Part shown: piece after piece, positions 9,927-64,000 of the stretch
Layout of the letters: each line of letters opens with the position of its first letter
Numbering within the stretch: position 1 is the stretch's first letter
From: Firmicutes bacterium UBA6811
GTDB taxonomy: Bacteria; Bacillota; SHA-98; UBA4971
Length of the DNA stretch: 64,000 nucleotides
Reading direction: 5' to 3'
NCBI GenBank assembly: GCA_002452295.1
Contig: DKEX01000096.1
Location: forward strand, 16,349-80,348
Made by a program: the position numbers and the translations under genes
Notes under the pieces: generated by a model
What the model was told of the DNA's origin: nothing
Seen by the model: only the letters and a program-made list of their open reading frames with translations
Database searches by the model: none

Positions 9927-10154
9927 CCGCGTTTCGTCCAGGTACCGCCCGCGCCGAGGGCGCTCGTGTCCGGCGCCTGAAACGCTGAACGTTCGTGCCC
10001 AGGCCCGTGCCAATGCCCATGCCCATCACCGGGACCGGGACTGTGCCCGCGCCTTGCGTCCGTCTCAGTGCGCGTGTGCATGGACATACACCGCGAGTCC
10101 CGCTGGCTGTGGTGGAATGATGTTCGGGCTGGCAACGTACGGTGCAACACACGG

Positions 10155-10183
10155 TTGACAGGCGGGGAAGCATCCAATATACT
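10155..10183 (+). promoter_or_regulatory. Near-consensus sigma-A promoter TTGACA-17-TATACT, about 410 nt upstream of pckA
   Basis: TTGACA is at 10155-10160 and TATACT at 10178-10183. A long leader with hairpins and a T-rich run near 10430-10450 follows. Confidence 0.45.
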
Positions 10184-10594
10184 GAGAAAAAATGCGGGGC
10201 CAGCAGGCCTGAAGATGAAGAAGTCACCTCATCTCCCTGCAGGAGGTGAGGTAGAGGCGCGGCGCGCCATGAATAGGCATCCAGAGAAGGGCATCGCGGA
10301 GGGATGCCGAAAGGGGCCGCCGCCGAAGTCCCGCGCCCGGCCGGGGCGCAGGGCTGGGCCTGCATCGAAGAGGTGCAGGACTGTCACCGGGCATGTCTCC
10401 CTTGACCGCCCGGTGGAGCGCTATCTCACAGGGGGAAGGTGCTTCTTTTTTTCCCAAAAGCAGGTGAGTCGACGAGAAGGAGGGGGCGTGACAAAGTGGC
10501 ACATGATGCAGTCACTCATCGCGCATGGCAATTGGAGGGCCTTGAGAAATGCGGAGGAGACTCAAACGCGCGCCGTGACGCTTTTGCGGCAGAT

Positions 10595-12151
10595 ATGGCA
10601 GGCCTTGGCAGGGCATATGCAGCTTACCACAACCTTGCCGTCCCCAGGCTCATCGAAATGGCGGTCGCCCGCGGCGAGGGCGTGCTCACGAGCACGGGCG
10701 CGTTCAACGTGGTGGGCGGCAGATACACGGGCCGGTCCCCCGACGACAGGTTCATCGTCGACGACCCGAAGACGCGGGACGAGATATGGTGGGGCCCCGT
10801 GAACAGGCCGTTTCCGGAGGATGCGTTTGACAGGCTGCGCTGTCGGGTCGCCAGGCACTTGAAGGACAGGGAGTTGTTCGTGTTTGACGGGTTCGCCGGC
10901 GCGGACCCCGAGTATCGCCTGCCCATCCGCATCATCACCGAGCTTGCCTGGCAGAACGCCTTCGCGCAGCAGGTATTCCTGCGTCCGACCCCCGACGAGC
11001 TTCGGGCGCACGAGCCCCACTTCACGGTGATATCGGCGCCGGGCTTCATGGCCGTCCCCGGGCGCGACGGCACGAGGTCGGAGGCGTTCATTCTCATCAA
11101 CTTCGCACGGAGGCTCATCCTCATCGGCGGCACCCACTATGCCGGCGAGATAAAGAAGTCGGTTTTCAGCGTTATGAACTTCCTGCTGCCGCGTCGAGGC
11201 GTCTTCCCCATGCACTGCTCCGCCAACGTCGGCCCCGCCGGCGACGTTGCGCTGTTTTTCGGCCTGTCCGGCACGGGCAAGACGACGCTCTCCGCCGACC
11301 CGGCGCGCCGCCTCATCGGCGACGACGAGCACGGGTGGTCTGAACGAGGGGTCTTCAACATCGAGGGGGGCTGCTACGCGAAGTGCATCAGGCTCTCGGC
11401 CGAGAGCGAGCCGCTCATATACGAGGCCATCCGCTTCGGGACCGTGCTCGAGAACGTGGCCGTGGACCCGGACACACGCATGCCGGACTTTGCCAGTGAC
11501 GCGCTGACGGAGAACACCAGGGCGGGGTTCCCGGTCAGCTTCATCCCGGGTGCTGTGACGGGCGGCGTGGGCGGGCATCCTGGGGCGATCATCTTCCTTA
11601 CGGCCGACGCGTTCGGGGTATTCCCGCCTGTAGCGCGGCTCACGAGAGAACAGGCCATGTACCACTTCCTCTCCGGCTACACCAGCAAGCTCGCCGGCAC
11701 CGAGCGTGGTGTCACCGCGCCCCAGGCCACGTTCTCGACGTGCTTTGCAGCCCCGTTCCTGCCGCGCCCGCCGGTGGTGTACTCGCGGCTGCTGGGGCAG
11801 AAGGTGGAGGCCCACGACGTGCCGGTATACCTCGTCAACACCGGCTGGATCGGGGGGCCTTATGGAGTGGGTAGCCGGATCAGGATTCGCGATACCCGGG
11901 CGATTGTGTCAGCCGTCCTCGGCGGGGAGATGGAGAAGGTGCCGTCCAGCCCCGACCCGATCCTCGGCTTCGAGGTTCCGGAGGCGTGCCCGGGCGTGCC
12001 GCCGGAGATCATGAGGCCGCGTGCCGCCTGGGCGGACCCGAATGCCTACGACCAACAGGCCGCCGCACTCGCCCGCAAGTTTATCGAGAACTTCAAGCGA
12101 TTCGAGGACGCGCCACCCTCCGTCAGGTCAGCCGGACCCCGGCTGCCGTAG
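10595..12151 (+). CDS. pckA: Phosphoenolpyruvate carboxykinase (ATP)
   Basis: It has the kinase-1a motif [11 protein letters not shown] plus conserved blocks. The length from ATG 10595 is 518 aa. Confidence 0.9.
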
Positions 12152-12407
12152 GCTCCCGCAGTCGCCATAGCTCTACCTGCCTGCGGCCCGCCGCGCCCTG
12201 CCCGACCTGTGCCCGGCGGGCTGTGGTGTGTCTGCGATCTCAGCGACAGGGGAAGGATCTTCGAGAGACGGCAGCGAAACATAGCGATGAGGCCGGGCGA
12301 ATATGGTGGAATGGGAAACGCGGCCCACAGGTCCGCGCCACCAGTCCGCGCGGGGCCGCAGGTTGAGCGTACACTGGGCCGGGCGAGCGGCAGGAGGCGG
12401 GTCTGCC

Positions 12408-13343
12408 ATGAAGAAGAAGGTTGTCGTCCTCGGGATCGTGGGGCTGGCTGTCCTCTCCGTGGTGGCGCTGCTGGAGATGGGACCCCGCCCTGTTGACGGG
12501 GGCTTCGCCTGCGGCCGCCTGGGCCTGCCGGGCAACAAGGTGGCCGTGGTCTACCTCCAGGGGCCCATAGCCGAGGGGCGCCAATCCATGTCAACTTCGG
12601 CCACCATCACGCCGAGGCTGGTGGAGAAGTACCTCGACAAGCTCGAGGCCGACCCCTCTGTCAAAGCGGTCGTCCTCAGGGTGGATAGCCCCGGCGGGTC
12701 GGTGGCCGCCTCACAGGCCATAGCCGGCATGATTGCGGAGTTCTCCAGGCCTGTGGTCGTATCCATGGGCGACATGGCGGCCTCGGGCGGCTACTACATA
12801 TCCGCCCCGGCCGACCGCATCGTGGCGATGCCGGGCACCATGACTGGCTCCATCGGCGTCATCATGAGCATCGTGGACCTGCAGGGGCTCTACGACAAGC
12901 TGGGCATCAACGAGCAGATAGTAAAGTCCGGCAAGCACAAGGACATGTACCGGCGCACCCTCACGCCGGAAGAGCGCACGCTCGTCCAGAACCTGTCGGA
13001 CGCTGCGTACGAGCAGTTCGTGACCGACGTCGCCTTCCACCGGGGGATGACGGTCGACAGGGTGAAAGAGCTTGCCACGGGGGAGCTGTTCCTCGGAAGC
13101 CAGGCGATGGAGCTGGGCCTCGTTGATTCCGTGGGTGACCTCGATGACGCGGTGAACGCCGCCGCCGAGCTTGCCGGGGTCGAGTCGCCGGTGGTGTACG
13201 AGGTGCCGTCGCCCATCTTCTTCGTCAACATCCTGGACCTCATCGGTGAGGTGCGGGGCTTCTTGAGGGCACTGACGCTCACCCCGGAGGAGCGACTTCT
13301 CTGGAGGCTGCGCAACGAACCTGCGCCGGAGCTTCGTTATTAG
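12408..13343 (+). CDS. sppA: Signal peptide peptidase SppA (36K type)
   Basis: There is an N-terminal TM, the catalytic region SMGDMAASGGYYIS, a GGAGG RBS and ATG at 12408. Confidence 0.85.
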   Translation: MKKKVVVLGIVGLAVLSVVALLEMGPRPVDGGFACGRLGLPGNKVAVVYLQGPIAEGRQSMSTSATITPRLVEKYLDKLEADPSVKAVVLRVDSPGGSVAASQAIAGMIAEFSRPVVVSMGDMAASGGYYISAPADRIVAMPGTMTGSIGVIMSIVDLQGLYDKLGINEQIVKSGKHKDMYRRTLTPEERTLVQNLSDAAYEQFVTDVAFHRGMTVDRVKELATGELFLGSQAMELGLVDSVGDLDDAVNAAAELAGVESPVVYEVPSPIFFVNILDLIGEVRGFLRALTLTPEERLLWRLRNEPAPELRY

Positions 13344-13402
13344 GCGGGGCATCAGACCAGGCCCGGGTAGTTCATGCGGTCTGGAGAGGGGGACGGACGG
13401 GT

Positions 13403-14008
13403 ATGCCGGAGGGGATCTTCGACTGGCTGTACGGGGTTATCGCTGGACCGGTTGAGGCGCTTCGCGCCGTGGCCGAGAGGAGGCCCACCGGGTGGGCGCT
13501 TGCAATCGTCGCCGGCCTCGCGGCGCTCTCCTCCACCGCCGGGATGTCACAGGCGGACCTTGGCGCCTTCGGGAGGACGGCGGTCGAGAGGATCGTGCAC
13601 ACGGTGCTCCCCGGCGGGATCATCCTCTCCGCTGTCGTCTATTTCGTCGGCATCGGGATTCTACACCTCGCCGCGCTCCTCTTCGGAGGCAAGGGGACCT
13701 TCGCAGGCCTGTTTTCCGCGGTCGGGTTCGCCCAGTTTCCAGCCATGCTGTCGCTGCCTCTCATGCTCCTCGGGCGGCTCGGCGGGCCTGCGGTGGGGGC
13801 CCTCGCCATAGTGGGGTCGGCGGGGCTGTCTATATGGGTCATCGCCCTCGGCGTCATTGCGCTCAGGGAGGCCCACGGCATGTCCACGGGTGCGGCCATC
13901 GGCACGTGCGTATTCGCCGCGATCATCCCCGTGGCGGTCATCCTGGGCATCATTCTCCTCGTTGCTATGCTCGCGACCATGATCGGAGCGGCCTCCGGCG
14001 CGTTCTAG
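13403..14008 (+). CDS. Yip1-domain integral membrane protein
   Basis: It has five hydrophobic segments and the Yip1/DUF1282-like topology. The assignment is weaker than for the enzymes. Confidence 0.45.
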   Translation: MPEGIFDWLYGVIAGPVEALRAVAERRPTGWALAIVAGLAALSSTAGMSQADLGAFGRTAVERIVHTVLPGGIILSAVVYFVGIGILHLAALLFGGKGTFAGLFSAVGFAQFPAMLSLPLMLLGRLGGPAVGALAIVGSAGLSIWVIALGVIALREAHGMSTGAAIGTCVFAAIIPVAVILGIILLVAMLATMIGAASGAF

Positions 14009-14350
14009 GGAGGCCGCTTCACCTGCCTGATGCCGGCTGCTGCGAGAAAGCGCAGCAGATCGGCGAAACCTCTTGCGTTCGCCTGCGTCAGCGTAGTGTT
14101 TGTGGAGATGTACATGCCCGCCTGGAGCGCGGCCCTGATTCCGCGAACCGTCTCGTCCCAGGCGCCGGCCGAGCGCACTATCGCGTCGTGCACGGCCGGG
14201 TCCGCCGACTCGATGCTCACCTGGATGTAATCCAGGCTCGCCGCCTTCAGCCCGCCCGCAAGCCCCGTAAGCGCCCTGCCGTTCGTGATGAGGCCGGTGA
14301 CGAACTTCTCGGCGTAGCGGACGAGATCCACAAGGTCGCGCCCGGGTGCC
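14008..14350 (-). pseudogene. Radical SAM (SPASM-maturase-like) gene remnant: central core only, lacking the CxxxCxxC N-terminus and the C-terminus
   Basis: The minus-strand translation reads LITNGRAL...YIQVSIESADPAVHD...VRGIRAALQAGMYISTNTTLTQAN. It is flanked by non-homologous sequence and stops directly against the Yip1 gene 3' end. Confidence 0.45.
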
Positions 14351-24281: not shown

Positions 24282-24297
24282 GGAACTGGTCTTGCGA

Positions 24298-24405
24298 GCC
24301 GCTTCCCTACGCTGGTATTGCCCAGGCGGAGTCACCCGATCAGGTTCGAAGGGTAGGCGCCAGGTGGCACCTTCTCAGCCGCTTTCGCAGCACCCCCAGC
24401 GGACT
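24298..24405 (-). ncRNA. TPP (THI-box) riboswitch
   Basis: The minus-strand sequence GGGGGUGC...GGCUGAGA...ACCCUUCGAACCUGAUC...AAUACCAGCGUAGGGAAGC matches the conserved TPP aptamer core. Confidence 0.8.
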
Positions 24406-24428
24406 TCCGTGTGCACTTTTGCACCTTT

Positions 24429-53015: not shown

Positions 53016-53942
53016 TCACGTTATCTGGATTTCCACGCTCAGCCTGACGCCCGTCCCGGTGTTGACCGCTGTGACGGTGTATACACCCGGCCGGACCGGC
53101 ACCCCTTCGTTCGTCGTCTGGTTCCAGGTCTGAAGGAAGATCATGTTCCCGCCGGGCGGCAGCGTGACCCGCTCTATCGCAAACGTGAAGAACTTCCCCG
53201 CCGACCAGCGCCATATCTCCCTCGTGTCGCGGGTGACGATGAAATCAAACCTCTGGCTGGACCGGTACGTGATCGTCACAGGGCTTGTGGTGACGTTGGT
53301 CTTCGTCAGGCTCATGCGCACAGGCTCGCCCCGGGCATAGCTGACCTTGTTCACCATGAACGTGTGCCGCAGGCCGTCTTGCACCACAGAGACCTGGTTC
53401 ACCCCGGTCACGGGTGCCGGTGGCGTCGGTGGAGGCCCAGGGGGTACTGGAGGCCCGGGTGGCACGGGCGGCGTCGGCACCGGCGGCGCTGGCGGAGGCG
53501 GCGGAGACGGCACGGGAGGCGGCGTGACTGGCGGTCCGGGCGGCACCACGGGTGGTGGAGGCGGCGGCAACGGCGTCGGGATCACGATGGTCGGCCTTAT
53601 CGGCACGAGCAGCACCTGTCCGACGACGATGAAGTCCGGGTTCGGAATGCGGTTTATGGCCGCAAGCACTTCCACGGTGGTCCCGAACCTCGCGGCTATC
53701 TCCGCGAGCGTGTCGCCTGGCTGGACGATGTATAGACGAAAACCAACCGGCACCGCGATGGGCGGGGGGGGCGACGGGGTCACCGGCGGCGCCGCCGGCA
53801 CGGGAATCTGGAGCACCTGTCCGACGAAGATCACGTCGGGATTCGCGATGTTGTTAGCCTCAACAATCGCCTCGACCGTGGTGCCGAACCTCTCCGCAAT
53901 GAGAGCAAGGGTGTCGCCAGGCTGGACTATATACGTGATCAT
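53016..53942 (-). CDS. Cell-wall-binding protein: two LysM domains, a Pro-rich linker, and a C-terminal BsuPI (intracellular proteinase inhibitor) domain
   Basis: The LysM repeats are YIVQPGDTLALIAERFGTTVEAIVEANNI and YIVQPGDTLAEIAARFGTTVEVLAAIN. The C-terminus has ...SSQRFDFIV...IWRWSAGKFF...PPGG...W...PGVYTV. The RBS is GGGAGGGA. Confidence 0.65.
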   Translation of the reverse strand: MITYIVQPGDTLALIAERFGTTVEAIVEANNIANPDVIFVGQVLQIPVPAAPPVTPSPPPPIAVPVGFRLYIVQPGDTLAEIAARFGTTVEVLAAINRIPNPDFIVVGQVLLVPIRPTIVIPTPLPPPPPPVVPPGPPVTPPPVPSPPPPPAPPVPTPPVPPGPPVPPGPPPTPPAPVTGVNQVSVVQDGLRHTFMVNKVSYARGEPVRMSLTKTNVTTSPVTITYRSSQRFDFIVTRDTREIWRWSAGKFFTFAIERVTLPPGGNMIFLQTWNQTTNEGVPVRPGVYTVTAVNTGTGVRLSVEIQIT

Positions 53943-54419
53943 GGCAATTCCCTCCCGGCGTCGTATGCCCTGAACCGGGATCACCCGGTGCGAGGGCCGA
54001 CAATTCCTCACAACATGTTATTCTATGTGCAGCACGGTGTTGCCTGTTGCCCGGCCATAGAGCGGGGAACCGACCTGATGTCCCCTTAAAGGAATACACG
54101 CAAGAGAGTCGAACAAAGAGCGTAGAGGAACCTGACATCACCCGGGCGCAACACGCATAGACCAGAGTATGGTCGGTTTGCCTGCGGGCCGGATGTCGTC
54201 GAGGGGCTCCGCCGGGACCGTGCCGGGGTCGTATCGCCGAACCTGCCCCAGGGGCCGAGGGAAGGCAGGGTTGCGCCCCCGGGGCACCTGATACGTGCGC
54301 CTGGCGCAAGACCCATTGGGAGCGTGCGACCCCTTGCAGGTGCGAACCCGTAGTCCAGTGCCAGCTACCCCTGGAGATGCGTCAGCGATCCCTGGGGTTG
54401 TGCTCAAAGGAGGCAGCGC

Positions 54420-55391
54420 GTGCCCCTGTTCGAGAGATTGCGAGAGCTCCCGGGACCCGTGCGCGCCGCCGCCGTGCTTCTCATGGGGGCGGGGGCGGTG
54501 TGTCTCGCGCTCTCGGCTGTTGCCGGAGAGCTCAAGGGGGAAGTCTGTCTCCATAGGGGCGCCCGCCTCGTGCAAACGGGGGGCGGTCCCTGGGGCCGAA
54601 CGCCGGCGACCGTGGATGCACTAGGAGCGCGGCCGGCCGCACTTGCGTCGGCGCCACCACCGGCACCCGCGACGCTGCGGGGGCTCGAGCAAGGATCTCT
54701 TCCGTCAGTATCAGCACCGGCACCAGCGCCAGCGCCGGCACCAGCACAGGCCGCTGTTCCGGCAACTGTCTCCGGCGATGTCCTGGATCGTATCCGTGCG
54801 GCCAGGACCCCAGTTCTTGAGCAAGAGGTTCTCGAGATCGCACGCGCCTCGGTAGCCGCTGCGGTTGCCGGTGACGGCGCAGAGGGGCGGCACCGGGCAG
54901 CGGTCTTCCCGGTGCGGACGCCGGGCGGCCTTCCTCGGGACGATGGCAGCGGCAGGGCCGTCCTCACGGCACCCGCTGGAGTGTTCGTCGCGCTCATCCT
55001 CGATGGCAGGGTGAGCGGGTGCATGGGCACCGTCTATCCGATGGAGGCGTCGCTCGCCGAGGAGATCGCAAGCGCGGCGCGGATGGCGGCTACGTCGGAC
55101 CCGCGTCGCCTGCCCGTGCGACCGGAGGAAGTGGCTCGGCTCGAGTACTGCGTGTCGGTGGTCGGCAGGGTGAGGCGGCACGACCCCGCGGTGCCGGTGA
55201 ACCCGCGAATCCAGGGCGTCATTGTAAGGGCGAACGGGAGGGCTGGCGTGATCCTGCCCGGCGAGGCCAGGACGGGCGCATACGAGATGGCCTGGGCGAA
55301 GCGCGAGGCCGGCGTGGGTCCAGGTGAGCACTATGAGCTATACGTCTTCGAGACGGAGCGATTCGGGAAGGCCCTGCCTTTGAGAAGGTAG
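54420..55391 (+). CDS. AMMECR1-domain protein with an N-terminal signal/TM segment and an Ala/Pro-rich linker
   Basis: There is an N-terminal hydrophobic segment AAVLLMGAGAVCLALSAV, a PAPAPAPA linker, and a C-terminal AMMECR1 core with GVFVALILDGRVSGCMG. Confidence 0.7.
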   Translation: MPLFERLRELPGPVRAAAVLLMGAGAVCLALSAVAGELKGEVCLHRGARLVQTGGGPWGRTPATVDALGARPAALASAPPPAPATLRGLEQGSLPSVSAPAPAPAPAPAQAAVPATVSGDVLDRIRAARTPVLEQEVLEIARASVAAAVAGDGAEGRHRAAVFPVRTPGGLPRDDGSGRAVLTAPAGVFVALILDGRVSGCMGTVYPMEASLAEEIASAARMAATSDPRRLPVRPEEVARLEYCVSVVGRVRRHDPAVPVNPRIQGVIVRANGRAGVILPGEARTGAYEMAWAKREAGVGPGEHYELYVFETERFGKALPLRR

Positions 55392-55410
55392 GCGAAGGAG
55401 GTAGGCGGCT

Positions 55411-58400
55411 GTGAAACCTCGTATCGCGCGATCGATACCTTACGCGGTTGCGGCGCTCGCGGCGGCTGCGGCGCTCGCGTTTCTCGCAAGGCCGCTTTCT
55501 GCAGATAGCGCCGATAAGGGTTACCTTTACATGTATACGGAGGAGAGGGTATGGGCGCCTTCCGAGCACCCGTCCGTGATAGTCCGAGGTCGGAGCGCGA
55601 CGCGGATTGACTTCACAGTGTGGAGGTTCAACCCCATCACGCAATACCAGGCGCGTGGGTCGCTGCACTCGGCCGCGGAGGCCCTACCTCAGGGCGGGGC
55701 GGTGCTGGTGAAGAGGCTCACGGAGTATCCGCGCCCGAACAAGCGGGGTGGGGACTACACTTTGAGGGTGCCCGTGCCTGCCGACAGGGTCGCGGGCTAC
55801 GTCGTGAAGGCGCGCGACAGCCACGGCCGCGAGGACACCACGTGGATCCTCGTGACCGACCTCGGCCTCGTGACGAAGCAGGCGCAGGATAAGCTCCTCG
55901 TGTACGCCCACACCTTTGGCAAGGACGCGCCGTGCGCGGGCGCGAAGGTCGCCGTGTACAGCGAGGGCAAGGAGGTCGGAAGCGGAACCACAGGGGGCGA
56001 TGGCCTGTGGGTGCTGAACGCCCCGGGCCTTGCAAAGGGCCTTTCGGTGGTCGGGACGGCAGGCGAGAGCTTCGCCCAGGTGACCTCGTCCTACTACTGG
56101 GAGGACTCCCGCTACAAGGCGTACATCTACACCGACAGGCCCGTATACCGGCCGGGCCAGCGGGTGTTCTTCAAGGGCATCCTCCGCGACGAGGACGGCG
56201 GAGACTACAAGGTGCTCGCGGGCGAGCCCGTCCGCGTGGAGGTGCGTGACGCGCGCGACGCGTGCATCTACAAGACCGAGGCCACGACGAACAGCTTCGG
56301 CTCATTCACCGGCGATCTCGTGCTCGGGGACGAGCCGGCGCTCGGCGTTTGCCGGGTGCTCGCCACGGTGAGGGGGAGCACGCACTCGGGCGCGTTCAAG
56401 GTGGCGGAGTACCGCAAGCCCGAGTACCAGGTGCAGGTGGAAGTGCCGAAGACCACGTACGTGGCGGGCGACGAGGTCCCGGTGAGCGTGAAGGCCGCCT
56501 ACTACTTCGGCGCGCCAGTCCCAGGTGCAAAGGTCAAATACGCCGCGTACTCCCAGCCGCACTACTTCTCGTACTACTCCTTCGAGGACCTTGGTTACTA
56601 TCCGGTCGGCGACGAGGACTTCGGGTACTACGGCGAGCTTGTGGCGTCCGGCGAAGGCGTGACGGACTCAAGTGGGCGCATGTCGTTCGCCATCAAGACG
56701 CAAAAGGCGGACACGACGAGGAAGATGTTCATCGAAGCGGTCGTGACCGACGAGAGCAGGCGCGAGGTCACGGGCAGAACCTCGGTGATCGTGGCGCGGG
56801 GGCTGTTCGACGTGAGCGTGCAGCCGGCGGCCTACGTGGTGGAGCCGGGCAAGCCTGCCACCGTGCGGGTGAAGGCCGAGACCATAGAGGGCAAGCCGCT
56901 TGCCGTGCGGCTCGAGTGGCAGGCCGTGCGCCGGACATGGGAGAACAAGAAGGCCAGGCGGTGGAAGGAGGCGTCGGGCGCGCTGCGCACGGCGGCCGAC
57001 GGGACGGGGAGCTTTGAGTTCACGCCGCGCGAGGAAGGGTCCTACGTGGTGGAGGTCGCCGGGACCGACGAACGCGGCAACCGGATCGTCTCCGAAGCGT
57101 ATCTCTGGGTCACGAGCGGAGCGAGCCGCTGGGCGAGTTACGGCGGCACCGAGATAGAGATCGTGGCCGACAAGGACGTGTACGAGATCGGGGACACGGC
57201 GAAGATCCTCGTGAACACCACGCTCGACGACGCGTGGGCGGTGGTGACGGTCGAGGGGCGCGACCTTGCCTCGCACGGGGTGGTCCACATCATGGGCCAC
57301 ACGAGGCTGTTCGAGGTCCCCATCACCCGGGAGCACCTTCCGAACGCGTTCTTCACCGTGACGATAGTCCGCGGGAAGAGGCTCTTCTCCAGGGAGAAGA
57401 CCATCTATGTGTCGACGAAGGACAACTACCTGAACGTGGCGATCATTCCGAACAAGGAGACCTACGGTCCCGGCGACAAGGCTACCTATGTGGTGAAGAC
57501 GACGGATGCGGCGGGCCGCCCGGTGCAGTCCGAGGTGTCGCTGGGGGTCGTGGACGCATCCATATACGCGATCCAGCCGGAGATGGCGCCCGACATAAAG
57601 AAGGCGTTCTACGGGTCCATCTGGAACAGGGTGGTCACGAGCTATTCGTTCCCGGAGTGGTATTACGGAGGTGCCGACAAAGTCGGCGGGTCGGCGGACG
57701 TGAGGAGGAAGTTCGAGGACACGGCCTTCTGGAATCCCACCATCGTGACGGACCGAAACGGCACCGGGAAGATCGAGTTCGTCATGCCGGATAACCTCAC
57801 GACGTGGCGGGCGACCGCGAGGGCCCACACCCTCAAGACCCAGGTGGGGTCGGCGACTCGAGACGTGGTGACGACCAAGGACCTCGTCGTGAGGCTTGCG
57901 ACGCCGCGCTTGTTCACGCTGGGCGACCGGACGGCGGTCTCGACGATCGTCCACAACTACACCGGGCGCAAGATTAAGGCGAAGATCACTCTCAAGGCCG
58001 AGGGTGTCACGCTGAAAGATGCGGGCGAGCGCGAGGTGGAGCTTGGCCCCATGGGCCAGGCCTCGCTCGACTGGAAGGTTGAGTGCGGCGAGGTCGGAGT
58101 CGCACGCTTTGCGGCGTCGGCCCAGGCTGACGTCGGACGGGCGCGGGACGCGCTTGAAATGGGCGTGCCGGTGCTGCCCTTCGGTAGGCGGCACGAGCGA
58201 CACGAGGCTGGCGAGGTGGGCGGCGATGCCGCTAGCGGCGCAGGGGCCGGGAAGGCGCTCGTCAGGTTCGATGTGCCAGAGGACGCGCTGCCTGGCACGG
58301 TCGACGTGAAGGTGCGGCTCGCGCCATCGGTTGCGGCCGCGGCCCTGGGGGCTCTCGAATACCTGGCGTCGTTCCCGTACGGGTGTGTGGAGCAGACCAT

Positions 58401-60531
58401 GAACTCCTTCCTGCCCGACGTGGTGGTGGCCTGGACGCTAAAGGATCTCGGGGTGGAGGCGCCGCCTGAAGTCGAGCAGGACCTGCCGAGGATGGTCTCG
58501 GCGGGCCTCGCGAGGCTCTACCGCTACCAGCACTACGACGGAGGATGGGGCTGGTGGGAGTACGACCAGACGGACCCGAGGATGACCGCTTACGTGGTAT
58601 ACGGCCTCGACCTTGCGCGGAAGGCGGGGTTCGAGGTGGACGGCCAGGTGCTCGCGCGAGGGAAGAGAGCGCTTGTCGAGCTTGCTGGTAGGCCGCGCGA
58701 CGTGGACGACCTCGTATACAAGCTCTACGTCATGTCCGAGGTGGGCGAGAGGAGCCTTGCGAGGCTCGACGAGATGGTGGCGAGGCGGCTCGAGCTTTCC
58801 GAATACTCGCTTGCGCTCCTCGTGCTTACTCTCGACAACGTGGGCCGGGCCGATGATGCCAGGGAGGTGCTCCAGGATCTCCTGGCGTCGGCGCGGGGCG
58901 ACGACATGCTCACCTACTGGGACGCGCCGGAGGGCGAGCGGTACTGGGCGGACAACCGCGTGGAGACCACGGCGTACGCGCTCATGGCGATGCTTGCGGT
59001 GGACCCCGGGAACGAGAAGGTCCCGGGAGCGGTGAGGTGGCTTGCGGACGCGCGGCAGGGCAAGGCATGGTTCTCAACCAAGGACACCGCCGTGGCCGTG
59101 TTCGCGCTGGCGGAGTACCTGAAGCTACGCGACGAGGTCGCGCCGAACTACACCGCTACCGTCAGCATCAACGGAAAAGATGTCAAGAAGGTGCATTTCA
59201 CCAGAAAGGACGTCTTCGGGAAGGAGATCGAGGTCAGCATAGACGCGCGCGACCTTGCGCGCGGGCAGAATGAGATCACCATCGCGAAGGACGGCGGGAA
59301 GGGCAGGCTGTACTACACGTTCTCTTGTGAGTACTACACGGCTGCGGACTCCGTGGCGCCCGAAGGGCAGGGCCTCGCGGTGACCCGGGGCTACTACCGG
59401 AGGGCCCCGGCGCCGGCCGCTGCCGGGCGCGAGAGGCGCGAGGACGGAAAGACGCGCGGCGGTGAGGAGAAGCCGGAGTACGTGTACGAACCCGTGACCG
59501 GCGCTGTGAAGCCGGGCGAGGAGATATACGTTCGCATAAACATCAAGGCCGATAGCCCGTATACCTATATGATCATCGAAGATCCGCTCCCGTCGGGCTT
59601 CGAGACTTCGGATGAGCCGATCGACGTCTATAGCTGGCACTTCTCGTACGGCAGGAAGGAGGTCCGCGACGAGAAGGTGGCCTTCTTCAGCGGCTACCTG
59701 AAGGAGGGCGAAGACGAGATCGTGTACCCCATACGAGCTGAGCGGCCCGGGGATTACCGGGTCATGCCGACGCGGGTGTGGGGCATGTACTCGCCTGACG
59801 TCTTCGGCCAGTCGGCAAGCTCGGAGATCTCCTGCAGGGAGCCGGTGCTTGCGAGCTTCTCCACGACGCTCAAGGACCCGGAGGAGAGCCGCAACTACAA
59901 CGTTGCGCTGGCTGCGGCCGCCATCGACGGAGTCGTGCTCCAGCCGGGCGAGGAGTTCTCCTTCGACCGGGTCGTAGGGCCGAGGCTCGCGGAGGCCGGC
60001 TACAGGAATGCGCGGGTGATCTCCGGAGGCAAGAGCGTGCCGGGGATCGGCGGAGGGGTATGCCAGGTGTCGACGACCCTCTACAACGTGGCTCTCCTCG
60101 CCGGGCTCGAGATCGTCGAGCGCCACCCGCACTCAAGGCCGGTTGGGTACGTCCCGCCCGGGCTTGATGCTACGGTGGCCGAAGGCCAGTACGATCTCAG
60201 GTTCCGGAACACGCTTGGGGTGCCGCTGACGCTGGGCGCCCGCGTGGACGGGAACAGGTTGCTGATGGAGGCGCGGGCGCCTCTCGCGGAGGCCCCGGAG
60301 GTGCGCGTGACCACTGAGGTCCAGGGGACCGAGAGGCCGAGGCTCATCGGCGGGGTCGGTGCGGGCACCACGGGCGCTGTGGCCGAGCCGGGGGGGCCTG
60401 CCTACGGAGGCGAGAGCGGCATCCGCGTTGCAGTGTGGAGGAGTTTTTCCTCAGGCGGCGAAGCCACAAAGGAGCTGGTATCCGAGGATTATTACAAGCC
60501 GGTGCACGCGGTGGCCTCGTCGGTGCGGTAG
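55411..60531 (+). CDS. Secreted alpha-2-macroglobulin family protein with intact thioester (GCVEQ), fused to a C-terminal VanW domain
   Basis: It has a signal peptide and multiple MG domains. The thioester FPYGCVEQTMNSF is at about aa 990. The C-terminal VanW block is GGKSVPGIGGGVCQVSTTLYNVALLAG. It is 1706 aa. Confidence 0.8.
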   Translation: MKPRIARSIPYAVAALAAAAALAFLARPLSADSADKGYLYMYTEERVWAPSEHPSVIVRGRSATRIDFTVWRFNPITQYQARGSLHSAAEALPQGGAVLVKRLTEYPRPNKRGGDYTLRVPVPADRVAGYVVKARDSHGREDTTWILVTDLGLVTKQAQDKLLVYAHTFGKDAPCAGAKVAVYSEGKEVGSGTTGGDGLWVLNAPGLAKGLSVVGTAGESFAQVTSSYYWEDSRYKAYIYTDRPVYRPGQRVFFKGILRDEDGGDYKVLAGEPVRVEVRDARDACIYKTEATTNSFGSFTGDLVLGDEPALGVCRVLATVRGSTHSGAFKVAEYRKPEYQVQVEVPKTTYVAGDEVPVSVKAAYYFGAPVPGAKVKYAAYSQPHYFSYYSFEDLGYYPVGDEDFGYYGELVASGEGVTDSSGRMSFAIKTQKADTTRKMFIEAVVTDESRREVTGRTSVIVARGLFDVSVQPAAYVVEPGKPATVRVKAETIEGKPLAVRLEWQAVRRTWENKKARRWKEASGALRTAADGTGSFEFTPREEGSYVVEVAGTDERGNRIVSEAYLWVTSGASRWASYGGTEIEIVADKDVYEIGDTAKILVNTTLDDAWAVVTVEGRDLASHGVVHIMGHTRLFEVPITREHLPNAFFTVTIVRGKRLFSREKTIYVSTKDNYLNVAIIPNKETYGPGDKATYVVKTTDAAGRPVQSEVSLGVVDASIYAIQPEMAPDIKKAFYGSIWNRVVTSYSFPEWYYGGADKVGGSADVRRKFEDTAFWNPTIVTDRNGTGKIEFVMPDNLTTWRATARAHTLKTQVGSATRDVVTTKDLVVRLATPRLFTLGDRTAVSTIVHNYTGRKIKAKITLKAEGVTLKDAGEREVELGPMGQASLDWKVECGEVGVARFAASAQADVGRARDALEMGVPVLPFGRRHERHEAGEVGGDAASGAGAGKALVRFDVPEDALPGTVDVKVRLAPSVAAAALGALEYLASFPYGCVEQTMNSFLPDVVVAWTLKDLGVEAPPEVEQDLPRMVSAGLARLYRYQHYDGGWGWWEYDQTDPRMTAYVVYGLDLARKAGFEVDGQVLARGKRALVELAGRPRDVDDLVYKLYVMSEVGERSLARLDEMVARRLELSEYSLALLVLTLDNVGRADDAREVLQDLLASARGDDMLTYWDAPEGERYWADNRVETTAYALMAMLAVDPGNEKVPGAVRWLADARQGKAWFSTKDTAVAVFALAEYLKLRDEVAPNYTATVSINGKDVKKVHFTRKDVFGKEIEVSIDARDLARGQNEITIAKDGGKGRLYYTFSCEYYTAADSVAPEGQGLAVTRGYYRRAPAPAAAGRERREDGKTRGGEEKPEYVYEPVTGAVKPGEEIYVRINIKADSPYTYMIIEDPLPSGFETSDEPIDVYSWHFSYGRKEVRDEKVAFFSGYLKEGEDEIVYPIRAERPGDYRVMPTRVWGMYSPDVFGQSASSEISCREPVLASFSTTLKDPEESRNYNVALAAAAIDGVVLQPGEEFSFDRVVGPRLAEAGYRNARVISGGKSVPGIGGGVCQVSTTLYNVALLAGLEIVERHPHSRPVGYVPPGLDATVAEGQYDLRFRNTLGVPLTLGARVDGNRLLMEARAPLAEAPEVRVTTEVQGTERPRLIGGVGAGTTGAVAEPGGPAYGGESGIRVAVWRSFSSGGEATKELVSEDYYKPVHAVASSVR

Positions 60532-63125: not shown

Positions 63126-64000
63126 GTATCACCCATGCTCCGTTGGCGGGCTCCGGGCGCATGGGCGCCATGGGAGTCAGAAAATGGCATCGGCTGCTGC
63201 ACGCGTCCAGGTTTGACGCATAGCGGTCCGTATGATAGAATAAGAATTACCAAAAACCAAAACGGCCGATGAGGACCAGCCGATCCGCTTGAACGCTGAA
63301 TTCCCATCTGTGGGAAGCGGGGGACCCAACTCTTGGGGCTAATCCCGGCGGTCGGGGCCTGTGGGCCGCGTGTCGGGGAGACGCATCATACCCGTTGTGC
63401 TTCTCCCGCATGACACGCGCCGCACCCGCAGCGCACCGCCCCGGGACGGGTCAGACTCTTTCGATCCGAGCCCGTCAGCTAACCTCGTAAGCGTGGGAAG
63501 AGGAGGTGGGTTGGGTGGAAGCCTTTCGACCATGGCATGGACGGTCCATGTCCGTCGATTGTGGCTTCACCCAGGGAAGACCCACCCTGGGTGATTTGCT
63601 TCCCTCTCCCTCTGCCACTTCGTTGTCCTTCCTCAGCGGATGGTGTGAAACGGCCGCAACCGCCGCAAGGCGCAGGTAACGCAACACGTGGGCGCGACGA
63701 GTCCATGCGCCCATGTGGGCCCGCGTCGGCCCCGCGCTCAGCTTACCCTGCGTCGTGCGAGTTGCACTGACGAGAACGGCGATCCGGTTCGAGCCGCCGG
63801 CCACGCGCCGCGCGCGCGAGAACACCGGTTGTCGCCCCCGGGCATTGCATTGCCCGAAAGACGCAACAGGGCGGCGGTTTGTGCCCGCGGTGCGGCTTCC
63901 GCTCGAGAGGCGGAACTCATGCAACGGAGCGGCGTCTGGTCCTCGGCGAAAGAGCGAGGAGGGAACGAGATGAGGTTCGAAAACAGGTTCTCAGTGCTGG

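What the first reader, a model, noticed from the sequence alone, without database searches (positions are those of the whole stretch)
55411..60531. Secreted thioester alpha-2-macroglobulin fused to a VanW domain
The 1706-aa ORF has a signal peptide, a bacterial A2M MG-domain series and an intact CxEQ thioester (FPYGCVEQTMNSF). Its last ~140 aa form a clear VanW domain (GGKSVPGIGGGVCQVSTTLYNVALLAGLEIVERHPHSRP...). Bacterial A2Ms are usually lipoproteins paired with PBP1c, and VanW domains usually occur with PG-binding domains. An A2M-VanW fusion in a Firmicutes-like genome is not an architecture I recognise as described. It suggests a cell-envelope protease trap tethered to, or acting on, peptidoglycan.
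Basis: partly seen in the sequence, partly recalled or inferred. Interest (0 to 1): 0.7.

Follow-up and report, generated by a model that had tools for sequence, protein, structure and literature searches.

The report
Protease trap fused to wall cross-linker
This is one real gene in which a bacterial alpha-2-macroglobulin protease trap is joined to a VanW-type cell-wall cross-linking enzyme, and the same two proteins are encoded side by side in at least five bacterial phyla, a pairing I found in no paper.

Summary
ORF 55411-60531 (+) encodes 1706 aa: a signal peptide, the bacterial A2M domain series with an intact CVEQ thioester (C992), then MG10 joined without a linker to a VanW domain (Pfam E 3e-49) and an 86-aa beta-rich tail.

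VanW is now known as an LD-transpeptidase catalytic domain (PMC11348318). Its only family-wide conserved Cys and His, plus Asp (C1551, H1574, D1586), are intact here. VanW is also the best-conserved domain among the 14 fusion orthologues.

The fusion is rare. Only 2 of 1.84 billion representative proteins span MG10 and VanW, both from one Bacillota lineage. The split form is widespread. A separate short VanW gene lies beside the A2M gene in a sister Bacillota lineage, Armatimonadota, Omnitrophota, Melainabacteria and Desulfuromonadales. An AMMECR1-like gene with a signal peptide or membrane anchor often sits upstream, as it does in the window. No pbpC is adjacent.

The gene is therefore a Rosetta-stone fusion of an A2M/LD-transpeptidase module I found undescribed. 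It parallels the known A2M-PBP1c pairing.

The mechanism is inferred, not shown. I propose that the trap is held on peptidoglycan and coupled to 3-3 cross-linking. Covalent anchoring of the trap to peptidoglycan is the main rival.

The parts
54420..55391 (+). Upstream gene: AMMECR1-like protein with an N-terminal membrane anchor and a Pro/Ala-rich linker. The longest ORF is given; the true start is uncertain. Its stop lies 19 nt before the A2M-VanW start. It is a probable third component of the module.
   Evidence: Pfam AMMECR1, 80 bits against a cutoff of 25, at aa 179-315. A hydrophobic helix AAAVLLMGAGAVCLALSAVAG follows an Arg-rich N-terminus. Homologues with a signal peptide or anchor lie directly upstream of the A2M in L001-L004, L007, L043, L046, L074, L077, L079, L080 and L082.
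55394..55402 (+). Shine-Dalgarno-like GAAGGAGGT, 8 nt before the GTG start.
   Evidence: Read directly from the sequence.
55411..60531 (+). A2M-VanW fusion gene, 1706 aa, including the stop codon.
55411..55509 (+). N-terminal signal sequence (aa 1-33, MKPRIARSIPYAVAALAAAAALAFLARPLSADS). It has no lipobox Cys. Whether it is cleaved or acts as a signal anchor is undecided.
   Evidence: The hydrophobic core is conserved in the orthologues.
55852..56784 (+). N-terminal macroglobulin domains: bMG3, MG2 and MG3/bMG5.
   Evidence: Pfam.
57154..57570 (+). A2M bait-region domain (Pfam A2M_BRD, aa 582-720).
   Evidence: Pfam, E 4.9e-19.
57640..57720 (+). Probable bait segment (aa 744-770, SYSFPEWYYGGADKVGGSADVRRKFED). 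It is assigned by position only.
   Evidence: It lies between Pfam A2M_BRD and A2M. The ECAM bait R923-L942 maps upstream of the stretch that aligns to window aa 812. It is a short, conserved segment, so this assignment is tentative.
57721..57993 (+). Pfam A2M domain (aa 771-861).
   Evidence: Pfam, E 2.9e-21.
58333..59130 (+). Thioester domain (TED, about aa 975-1240).
   Evidence: Pfam TED_complement, E 1.6e-24. It aligns to ECAM and Sa-A2M TED.
58384..58395 (+). Thioester motif C992-V-E-Q995.
   Evidence: C[VLT]EQ is kept in all 14 fusion orthologues and in the split outgroup.
59374..59799 (+). C-terminal macroglobulin domain bMG10/CTMG (aa 1322-1463). This is the domain that shields the thioester in Sa-A2M.
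   Evidence: Pfam bMG10, E 4.2e-20. The AF2 model matches the C-terminal MG of ECAM 4ziu and Sa-A2M 4u48 by Foldseek. The role of CTMG comes from PMC4498604.
59800..59889 (+). Fusion junction (aa 1464-1493). There is no flexible linker. 'PVLASFSTT' corresponds to the first residues after the membrane anchor and linker of stand-alone A2M-linked VanW proteins.
   Evidence: Alignment with the L002 split pair and with P0122, P0215 and P0127.
59890..60270 (+). VanW LD-transpeptidase-type catalytic domain (aa 1494-1620). C1551 is at nt 60061-60063, H1574 at 60130-60132 and D1586 at 60166-60168.
   Evidence: Pfam VanW, E 3e-49. C1551 (0.99), H1574 (1.00) and D1586 (0.99) are the family-wide conserved Cys, His and Asp in 136 VanW domains. 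It is the most conserved domain among the fusion orthologues.
60271..60528 (+). Beta-rich C-terminal tail (aa 1621-1706), homologous to the tail of stand-alone VanW proteins. There is no Pfam G5 hit in this protein.
   Evidence: AF2 strands with pLDDT 94-98, except for one loop. Y1695 is conserved in 95% of VanW proteins. There is no Pfam hit even at E 10.
53016..54011 (-). Divergently oriented neighbour: a LysM-LysM-Pro-rich-BsuPI (protease inhibitor family) protein with no signal peptide. It is conserved next to the module in relatives. Whether it belongs to the module is uncertain.
   Evidence: Pfam LysM x2 plus BsuPI, translation, and the same gene in L003.

Best explanation
What it is: a single, genuine gene for a secreted envelope-defence protein with two reactive centres.
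- The first about 1460 residues are a thioester-bearing bacterial alpha-2-macroglobulin. A protease that cuts the bait frees the thioester domain from the MG10 lock and becomes covalently trapped.
- MG10 is fused, without a linker, to a VanW-type LD-transpeptidase domain. Its Cys1551 would attack the mDAP3-D-Ala4 bond of peptidoglycan tetrapeptide stems and form a thioacyl intermediate.

How it arose (shown by comparison): two adjacent, tightly coupled genes, A2M followed by a short membrane-anchored VanW, fused. The intergenic region and the VanW anchor and linker were lost. That two-gene pair is a conserved module in several phyla. It is often preceded by an AMMECR1-like protein with a signal peptide or anchor.

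How it most likely works (inferred):
- VanW and MG10 form a fixed complex.
- Through its VanW active site the complex engages the sacculus, which keeps the trap at the wall.
- It makes 3-3 cross-links where proteases or peptidases attack.
- This makes it the functional counterpart of the A2M-PBP1c 'defence plus repair' pair of Proteobacteria.

What is firm: the architecture, the intact motifs, the fusion history and the conserved gene linkage. What is inference: LD-transpeptidase activity, peptidoglycan engagement and the coupling of the two activities.
For: Architecture and motifs:
- The thioester is retained in all orthologues.
- The triad C1551/H1574/D1586 matches the only family-wide conserved Cys, His and Asp.
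- VanW has the highest conservation of any domain among the fusion orthologues, 0.80.
- VanW is an LD-transpeptidase domain with an essential Cys (PMC11348318; review PMC12729407).

Fusion history:
- The outgroup L002 has an A2M that ends right after MG10. The next gene is a VanW with its own TM helix and Gly-rich linker. Its mature part aligns with the window C-terminus. L086 shows the same arrangement.

Conserved linkage:
- A VanW ORF lies beside the A2M on the same strand in 11 of 80 species-representative A2M loci from Armatimonadota, Omnitrophota, Melainabacteria, Desulfuromonadales and an unclassified bacterium.
- All 4 short VanW proteins sampled from the VanW side sit immediately downstream of an A2M.
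- None of 3 longer VanW proteins, two with PG_binding_4 and one without, is A2M-linked.
- Partner type tracks the A2M tree.

Fixed complex:
- The junction has no linker.
- The AF2 model of MG10+VanW has pLDDT 89.7 and pTM 0.82.

Precedent:
- Type I A2M is encoded with PBP1c, and a defence/repair duo has been proposed (PMC5764988 and PMC4498604).
- In the 80 loci, the alternative partner is DUF1175, which also matches NlpC/P60 (a family known, from my own knowledge, for peptidoglycan peptidases). It is mutually exclusive with VanW.
Against: - No biochemical data exist for any A2M-linked VanW.
- Four of seven foreign VanW proteins tested by Bollinger et al. showed no LD-transpeptidase activity in their assay.
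- A2M-linked VanW proteins lack the PG_binding_4 domain of the proven cross-linking enzymes Ldt4 and Ldt5.
- The model gives no coordinates, so I could not check the triad geometry or the MG10-VanW interface.
- pTM from a shallow alignment of close orthologues could be inflated.
- The cell-envelope type of the host and its peptidoglycan chemistry (mDAP or Lys, amount of 3-3 links) are unknown.
- The 'repair' role of PBP1c, on which the analogy rests, is itself only a hypothesis.
Confidence: 0.5

Rival explanations
1. Dedicated anchoring enzyme. The VanW domain does not cross-link glycan strands. Instead it covalently attaches the A2M itself to a peptidoglycan stem peptide, as YkuD LDTs attach Lpp, OutB or outer-membrane proteins. 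This would replace the lipid anchor of ECAM. In split systems the VanW attaches its neighbour A2M in trans; in the fusion it acts in cis or between molecules.
For: - YkuD-type LDTs do exactly this for other envelope proteins.
- The A2M has no lipobox or other wall-retention domain.
- A2M-linked VanW proteins are minimal and PG4-less, and their genes abut or overlap the A2M gene.
- The linkage is specific to one VanW subset.
Against: - No conserved acceptor motif is seen at the C-terminus of VanW-linked A2Ms. There is no terminal Lys or Arg pattern.
- Nothing obvious is conserved at the predicted mature N-terminus.
- No VanW enzyme is known to anchor proteins.
- A rigid 1:1 fusion is not what one expects for an enzyme that acts once on a substrate.
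Confidence: 0.25
2. Structural or regulatory partner. VanW serves as a docking, anchor or regulatory subunit for the A2M, as MagA, MagB and MagF do for MagD. For example it could hold MG10, tune the thioester lock or localise the trap. Any enzymatic activity would be secondary, or directed at a non-peptidoglycan substrate.
For: - Type II A2M MagD needs operon partners for stability and membrane localisation, and it binds MagA and MagF. By size and COG these correspond to DUF1175/YfaT.
- DUF1175 and VanW are mutually exclusive A2M partners in the sampled loci.
- Split VanW proteins carry the membrane anchor.
- VanW is fused to the very domain that locks the thioester.
Against: - The catalytic Cys, His and Asp are strictly kept in every fused and linked copy.
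- VanW is the most conserved part of the protein, which argues for catalysis.
- In the fusion the VanW anchor has been lost, so anchoring cannot be its only role.
Confidence: 0.15
3. Artefact. Two adjacent genes were merged by a sequencing or assembly frameshift, or by loss of a stop codon in a single MAG.
For: The sister lineage has two separate, overlapping genes.
Against: - Fourteen 90%-identity clusters at 56-100% identity, from independent NCBI, ENA, JGI and Logan assemblies, share one continuous frame and a conserved junction.
- The VanW TM and linker segment is cleanly absent rather than frameshifted.
Confidence: 0.02

Closest known systems
E. coli ECAM (YfhM) / Salmonella Sa-A2M with PBP1c (Type I bacterial A2M operon)
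   Same: - Thioester CxEQ, MG series, bait-region domain, TED and C-terminal MG.
- Sequence and fold matches to 5a42, 4ziq and 4u48.
- It is genetically coupled to a peptidoglycan transpeptidase.
   Different: - It has no lipobox, so it is not a lipoprotein.
- No pbpC is adjacent.
- The partner is an unrelated cysteine LD-transpeptidase-type domain (VanW) rather than a class A PBP.
- Here the partner is fused to MG10 in the same polypeptide.
- Only about 20% identity over MG10.
P. aeruginosa MagD / E. coli YfaS (Type II A2M, mag/yfa operon with DUF1175, DUF2138, DUF2300, DUF2135)
   Same: - It is an A2M that works with dedicated operon-encoded partners.
- One partner class, DUF1175 (which also matches NlpC/P60), abuts the A2M gene in many relatives of the window protein. 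It is mutually exclusive there with VanW.
   Different: - The window protein has the thioester that Type II lacks.
- None of the mag accessory families is present.
- Its partners are VanW and AMMECR1.
C. difficile Ldt4 / Ldt5 (VanW-type LD-transpeptidases)
   Same: - A VanW catalytic domain with the conserved Cys-His-Asp.
- A beta-rich tail in the position of the G5 or partial G5 domain.
   Different: - No N-terminal TM helix of its own and no PG_binding_4 domain.
- It is attached to a 1460-aa A2M.
- It scores far below the NCBIfam VanW equivalog cutoff (69 against 365 bits).
- Its activity is untested.
E. coli LdtA/B/C-Lpp, Dickeya Ldt-OutB and Brucella/Coxiella Ldt-OMP attachment systems (YkuD LDTs that anchor proteins to peptidoglycan)
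   Same: An LD-transpeptidase functionally tied to a specific envelope protein. This offers a mechanism for wall retention of the A2M.
   Different: - Different catalytic fold (YkuD against VanW).
- Those enzymes are not encoded next to, or fused with, their protein substrate.
- No Lpp-like terminal acceptor motif was found in the A2M.

Membership tests
Bacterial thioester alpha-2-macroglobulin (Type I, ECAM/Sa-A2M-like) | MG-domain series, bait-region domain, TED and C-terminal MG10 in canonical order | tested here: met
   Pfam bMG3, MG2, MG3/bMG5, A2M_BRD, A2M, TED_complement and bMG10 are all above their gathering scores. phmmer matches ECAM and Sa-A2M chains. The MG10 model matches 4ziu and 4u48.
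Bacterial thioester alpha-2-macroglobulin (Type I, ECAM/Sa-A2M-like) | CxEQ thioester motif | tested here: met
   C992-V-E-Q995 is conserved as C[VLT]EQ in all 14 orthologues and in the outgroup.
Bacterial thioester alpha-2-macroglobulin (Type I, ECAM/Sa-A2M-like) | Lipoprotein signal peptide (lipobox Cys) giving inner-membrane anchoring | tested here: not met
   The signal sequence MKPRIARSIPYAVAALAAAAALAFLARPLSADS contains no Cys. The orthologues likewise have none.
Bacterial thioester alpha-2-macroglobulin (Type I, ECAM/Sa-A2M-like) | Operon with pbpC (PBP1c) | tested here: not met
   The neighbours are AMMECR1 and MatE. A class A PBP lies within 10 kb in only 6 of 80 related loci, and only one of those directly abuts the A2M.
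Bacterial thioester alpha-2-macroglobulin (Type I, ECAM/Sa-A2M-like) | CTMG lock motifs (RDDR, ExMY) that shield the thioester | tested here: inconclusive
   The window has EVRDEK (D1420 invariant) and WGMY (M1459 and Y1460 invariant) at corresponding places in MG10. Equivalence was not verified structurally.
Bacterial thioester alpha-2-macroglobulin (Type I, ECAM/Sa-A2M-like) | Bait cleavage leading to covalent protease trapping | not testable with these tools
   This needs biochemistry. The bait position (aa ~744-770) is assigned by position only.
VanW-type LD-transpeptidase (PF04294; Ldt4/Ldt5-like) | VanW domain above the Pfam gathering score | tested here: met
   166.3 bits against a cutoff of 27, covering profile positions 2-128 of 130.
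VanW-type LD-transpeptidase (PF04294; Ldt4/Ldt5-like) | Conserved catalytic Cys-His-Asp | tested here: met
   C1551 (0.99), H1574 (1.00) and D1586 (0.99) are the only Cys and His, and one of two Asp, conserved in at least 90% of 136 VanW domains. They are invariant in the fusion orthologues. The triad concept comes from PMC11348318.
VanW-type LD-transpeptidase (PF04294; Ldt4/Ldt5-like) | LD-transpeptidase / carboxypeptidase activity on tetrapeptide stems | not testable with these tools
   Only 5 VanW proteins have shown activity: Ldt4, Ldt5 and three foreign ones. Four others were negative or uninterpretable.
VanW-type LD-transpeptidase (PF04294; Ldt4/Ldt5-like) | Own membrane anchor plus PG_binding_4 domain (typical of about half the family, not strictly defining) | tested here: not met
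   There is no PG_binding_4 hit. The anchor present in the split homologue L002 is absent from the fusion.
Glycopeptide-resistance accessory protein VanW (NCBIfam NF033128 equivalog) | Score above the equivalog cutoff | tested here: not met
   69 bits against a cutoff of 365. This is not the van-cluster VanW.
Type II bacterial A2M (MagD/YfaS) system | No thioester; operon with DUF1175, DUF2138, DUF2300 and DUF2135 | tested here: not met
   The thioester is present. None of these families is among the window neighbours. DUF1175 partners occur only in other A2M clades.
AMMECR1 family (upstream gene 54420-55391) | AMMECR1 domain above the gathering score, with the conserved G-C-x-G motif | tested here: met
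   80.2 bits against a cutoff of 25. The motif reads RVSGCMGTVYP. An N-terminal anchor or signal peptide is present in all 13 A2M-adjacent homologues. From my own knowledge, that is atypical for this usually cytoplasmic family.

The most novel reading that the evidence does not exclude
The A2M, VanW and AMMECR1-like proteins form a three-part envelope-immunity machine in which the two reactive centres are mechanically coupled. VanW is rigidly attached to MG10, the domain that releases the thioester domain on bait cleavage. Protease attack would therefore switch the LD-transpeptidase on, or expose it. The enzyme would then either staple the loaded trap covalently to peptidoglycan or locally reinforce the wall with 3-3 cross-links. 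If so, this would be the first VanW enzyme that acts on or with a protein partner. It would also give the first functional context for an AMMECR1 domain outside the cytoplasm. It would imply that the PBP1c, DUF1175 and VanW partners of bacterial A2Ms all serve one common purpose centred on peptidoglycan stem peptides.
Probability: 0.2. Interest if true: 0.8.

Novelty: new variant of a known kind. Interest (0 to 1): 0.62.

Why it matters
[quoted passage not shown] Why the thioester type is encoded with a peptidoglycan synthase (PBP1c) has remained a hypothesis ('defence plus repair').

Here an unrelated peptidoglycan transpeptidase family, VanW, has independently become the partner of thioester A2Ms in several non-proteobacterial phyla. 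In one lineage it is physically fused to the domain that locks the thioester. A gene fusion of this kind is classic evidence that two proteins act together. It therefore strengthens the A2M-peptidoglycan link and makes it directly testable with a single recombinant protein.

The finding also does three other things:
- It defines a specific, PG4-less VanW subfamily whose function, unknown for most VanW proteins, can be probed.
- It gives an AMMECR1-like protein with a signal peptide or anchor a concrete genomic context.
- It suggests that A2M partner families (PBP1c, DUF1175/NlpC-P60-like, VanW) are interchangeable solutions to one task.

Tried and rejected
- **Lipobox comparison.** I compared VanW-linked and unlinked A2Ms from stop-to-stop ORFs. 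Start codons in these GC-rich loci were too uncertain, so the comparison was inconclusive and dropped.
- **Acceptor motif.** I looked for an Lpp-like terminal motif in VanW-linked A2Ms and found none. Curiously, many unlinked Acidobacteriota A2Ms end in '...EVK'.
- **Bait region.** I first took the indel-rich Gly/Ala stretch at aa 925-950 for the bait. Mapping ECAM's bait R923-L942 through the ECAM alignment puts the bait upstream, at about aa 744-770, so I withdrew that reading.
- **G5 identity of the tail.** There is no Pfam hit even at E 10.
- **Solved VanW structure.** None was found by sequence or by Foldseek. Only MG10 matched.
- **pbpC.** It is absent from the window and rare around related A2Ms.
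- **Independent fusions elsewhere.** None appeared among the top hits of an exhaustive search of 1.84 billion representatives.
- **Literature.** Searches for VanW plus macroglobulin and for AMMECR1 plus macroglobulin found nothing relevant. The AMMECR1/periplasm search was uninformative.
- **Promoter and terminator scan.** Nothing above shuffled expectation around the gene.
- **VanW-only protein search.** It oddly did not list the fusion proteins themselves. The fusion census therefore rests.
Full report
**1. The observation**

The window has an uninterrupted ORF at 55411-60531 (+) of 1706 codons. A strong Shine-Dalgarno sequence (GAAGGAGG, 55394-55402) precedes the GTG start. Thirteen full-length orthologues start at the aligned position.

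Pfam places the domains in canonical bacterial A2M order:
- bMG3, aa 148-222
- MG2, aa 236-331
- MG3/bMG5, aa 333-458
- A2M_BRD, aa 582-720
- A2M, aa 771-861
- TED
- bMG10, aa 1322-1463
- VanW, aa 1494-1620 (166 bits against a gathering score of 27)

The thioester motif is C992-VEQ. The N-terminus is a classical positively charged, then hydrophobic, signal sequence without a lipobox cysteine. After VanW comes an 86-aa tail with no Pfam match. The only correction is that VanW is not the last 140 aa. The VanW-homologous unit is about the last 240 aa.

The region is about 66% GC. The window carries SpoIIE, AddAB and FtsH, and the orthologues are labelled Firmicutes, Bacillota or Clostridia MAGs. 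The host is therefore a GC-rich Bacillota organism with sporulation genes.

**2. What VanW means now**

Bollinger et al. (PNAS 2024, PMC11348318) showed that VanW is a second, structurally novel LD-transpeptidase catalytic domain. [quoted passage not shown] A 2025 review (PMC12729407) confirms this. It notes that some VanW proteins show no such activity and that their roles are unknown.

In an alignment of 136 VanW domains, three window residues stand out. C1551 is the only Cys and H1574 the only His conserved in at least 90% of the sequences. D1586 is one of two such Asp; D1595 is the other.

All are invariant in the 14 fusion orthologues. VanW is the most conserved domain of the whole protein among those orthologues, at 0.80 mean identity against 0.61-0.79 for the A2M domains. 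The protein scores far below the NCBIfam equivalog for the van-cluster VanW (69 against 365 bits), so it is not a glycopeptide-resistance gene.

**3. How common is the fusion?**

A full-length search found A2M plus VanW in one polypeptide in 14 clusters only (P0001-P0014). They are 56-100% identical and 1666-1747 aa long. Where NCBI or nr names them they are 'VanW family protein' or 'hypothetical protein', and one JGI record calls its copy a YfaS (alpha-2-macroglobulin family) protein.

An exhaustive phmmer search with aa 1305-1706 (MG10+VanW) covered 1.84 billion 50%-identity representatives. It returned only two proteins that cover both parts. One is P0005, the representative of this clade. 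The other is P0241, an 839-aa fragment at 64% identity. All other top hits match VanW alone or MG10 alone. The fusion therefore arose once, in one narrow Bacillota lineage. It is present in databases, but I found it in no paper.

**4. The fusion is the joined form of a conserved gene pair**

The nearest non-fused relative is P0015, at 47% identity (locus L002). It ends just after MG10. The next gene is a VanW protein with its own Lys/Arg-rich N-terminus, a TM helix and a Gly-rich linker. Its mature part, 'VVVASFSTALEE...GGGICQVSTTLYNVALLAG...ERHHHSRPVGYVP', aligns residue for residue with the window C-terminus. A second Bacillota genome, L086, has the same split arrangement. In the fusion the stop codon, anchor and linker are gone, and MG10 runs straight into 'PVLASFSTT'.

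Beyond Bacillota, I scanned 80 species-representative A2M loci. I then searched them with a VanW HMM. Eleven have a separate 223-325-aa VanW ORF on the same strand next to the A2M:
- Downstream, usually abutting or overlapping the A2M ORF: six Armatimonadota loci, one Omnitrophota and one Obscuribacterales (Melainabacteria).
- Upstream: two Desulfuromonadales (one Geobacter) and one unclassified bacterium.

Eight of the 54 loci with at least 900 nt on both flanks are positive. So are all six Armatimonadota loci with enough downstream sequence.

Approaching from the VanW side gave the same answer. All four short VanW proteins that I picked from the VanW-domain search lie directly downstream of an A2M of 1554-1649 aa. 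Three longer VanW proteins used as controls are not A2M-linked; two carry PG_binding_4, and one of those sits next to YceG.

In a rough NJ tree, most A2M-linked VanW proteins form one large clade of 243-297-aa, PG4-less proteins. The Bacillota fused and split copies group together. An NJ tree of the A2Ms shows that partner type follows A2M phylogeny.

VanW is scarce outside Gram-positive bacteria. Repeated same-strand adjacency in five phyla therefore cannot be chance.

**5. Other components**

The gene immediately upstream in the window (54420-55391, stop 19 nt before the A2M start) is an AMMECR1-domain protein. It has an N-terminal hydrophobic anchor and a Pro/Ala-rich linker.

A jackhmmer search of all fetched loci found homologues directly upstream of the A2M in these loci:
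- the four Bacillota loci
- both Desulfuromonadales loci, in the order VanW-AMMECR1-A2M
- L046
- Obscuribacterales, Omnitrophota, a cyanobacterium and an Armatimonadia contig
- a spirochaete, which has no VanW

Every one has a signal peptide or anchor. An AMMECR1 domain outside the cytoplasm is unusual; I state that from my own knowledge of the family. I found no paper linking AMMECR1 with bacterial A2M.

In most Armatimonadota the upstream slot is instead taken by a 470-530-aa polytopic membrane protein without a Pfam match.

A divergently oriented LysM-LysM-BsuPI gene (53016-54011, minus strand; no signal peptide) is also conserved beside the module in relatives. I cannot say whether it belongs to the module.

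**6. Relation to known A2M systems**

The literature recognises two systems (PMC5764988, PMC4498604):
- Type I: thioester, lipoprotein, operon with pbpC, with a proposed 'protease defence plus wall repair' role.
- Type II: no thioester, six-gene mag/yfa operon.

The window protein matches ECAM and Sa-A2M in sequence and in the MG10 fold. It lacks the lipobox. It also lacks pbpC. A phmmer search with E. coli PbpC found a class A PBP within 10 kb in only 6 of the 80 loci, and only one of those directly abuts the A2M.

A Pfam census of the ORFs flanking the 80 A2Ms gave DUF1175 as the commonest neighbour, in 27. Seventeen of the scanned neighbours also match NlpC/P60. DUF1175 is the family of E. 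coli YfaT, the gene next to yfaS. By size and COG it corresponds to MagA and MagF, which bind MagD. Across the 80 loci DUF1175 and VanW never co-occur.

Thioester A2Ms of this broad family thus come with one of several alternative partners. Two of them, PBP1c and VanW, belong to families that work on peptidoglycan stem peptides; NlpC/P60 enzymes also do, from my own knowledge, and DUF1175 resembles them. This recurring theme is the strongest argument that the VanW partner acts at the wall together with the A2M.

**7. Structure**

I built an AF2 model of aa 1305-1706 from an alignment of fusion orthologues, A2Ms and VanW proteins. It is confident: mean pLDDT 89.7 and pTM 0.82. The VanW core and tail are at 94-98. 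The low-confidence stretches are the first residues, a variable insertion within MG10 and a loop in the tail.

The high pTM for a two-domain construct, together with the missing linker, suggests a fixed MG10-VanW arrangement. I had no coordinates with which to inspect the interface or the triad. Foldseek against the PDB matched only the MG10 part, to ECAM 4ziu/5a42 and Sa-A2M 4u48. This is consistent with VanW having no solved relative.

In Sa-A2M and ECAM the C-terminal MG domain shields the thioester, and it is where the cleaved bait re-binds. VanW is therefore attached to the mechanically decisive domain.

**8. Mechanism and its rivals**

Shown:
- One gene with two intact reactive centres.
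- An origin by fusion of adjacent genes.
- Conserved linkage across phyla.

Inferred, and my best account (about 0.5):
- The A2M traps proteases that reach the wall zone.
- VanW, fixed on MG10, engages tetrapeptide stems through a C1551 thioacyl intermediate.
- This keeps the trap on the sacculus and adds 3-3 cross-links where damage occurs.
- The protein is thus the counterpart of A2M-PBP1c.

Rivals:
- VanW is a dedicated anchoring enzyme that staples the A2M to peptidoglycan as YkuD LDTs do for Lpp, OutB or outer-membrane proteins (0.25). I found no acceptor motif for this.
- VanW is mainly a docking or regulatory subunit, like the Mag partners (0.15). The strictly conserved triad argues against this.
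- The fusion is an assembly artefact (0.02). Fourteen independent clusters exclude this.

The most novel reading not excluded is that bait cleavage switches the LD-transpeptidase on. This would couple protease sensing to wall stapling or reinforcement.

**9. Verdict**

- The fusion itself is a narrow-lineage variant that is already in databases under an uninformative name.
- It reveals an A2M/VanW (plus AMMECR1-like) envelope module spanning several phyla that I could not find described.
- I rate it a new variant of a known kind (A2M paired with a peptidoglycan transpeptidase), with interest 0.62.

Noticed in passing
window 53016-54011 (-): A LysM-LysM-proline-rich-BsuPI (protease inhibitor family) protein that starts directly with a LysM domain and has no signal peptide. 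It is conserved next to the A2M module in L003, with positional counterparts in L001 and L004. It could be a second wall-associated protease inhibitor, perhaps tied to the spore or mother cell.
   Followed up: partly
window 10244-10431 (+) and ORF 10439-12151 (+): A lysine riboswitch (116.7 bits) sits directly upstream of an ATP-dependent PEP carboxykinase ORF. From my own knowledge, that is an unusual target for this riboswitch class.
   Followed up: no
window 63284-63507 (+); window 24287-24407 (-): A c-di-AMP (ydaO/yuaA) riboswitch lies near the window end, and a TPP riboswitch lies on the minus strand. I did not examine their downstream genes.
   Followed up: no
L012, L016-L020, L028, L029, L031, L038, L061, L065 (C-termini of A2M ORFs): Many Acidobacteriota A2Ms end in a C-terminal Lys ('...EVK', '...TVK'). 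This recalls the terminal Lys through which Lpp is attached to peptidoglycan. Most of these loci also have a DUF1175 (NlpC/P60-like) gene directly upstream of the A2M and an unannotated ORF of about 250-270 aa abutting its end.
   Followed up: partly
L088 1655-3226, L013 7692-9287, L089 1467-2969, L090 1934-3343: In Armatimonadota-type loci, a 470-530-aa polytopic membrane protein with no Pfam match lies directly upstream of A2M-VanW and overlaps its start. It takes the slot held by AMMECR1 in other phyla.
   Followed up: partly
L074 8225-8818 with A2M 8822-14215 (Spirochaetes MAG): An AMMECR1-like gene with a signal peptide lies upstream of an A2M, but no VanW was detected in the roughly 24-kb locus. 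This shows that the AMMECR1-A2M link can exist without VanW.
   Followed up: no
L089 11590-16795 (-): A second, very large A2M (over 2093 aa) is encoded on the opposite strand a few kb from the A2M-VanW pair.
   Followed up: no
P0004: One fusion orthologue (78% identity) is labelled 'Betaproteobacteria bacterium' MAG, while the other named orthologues are Firmicutes, Bacillota or Clostridia. It is probably a mis-binned contig.
   Followed up: no
window aa 925-950 (nt ~58183-58260) and aa 1321-1365 (nt ~59371-59505): These two stretches are the most variable among the fusion orthologues. The first, before TED, carries Gly/Ala-rich insertions of up to about 25 aa in P0002 and P0003 and a longer one in the outgroup P0015. 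The second is an Arg/Glu/Gly-rich stretch within MG10. Neither is the bait, and their roles are unknown.
   Followed up: partly
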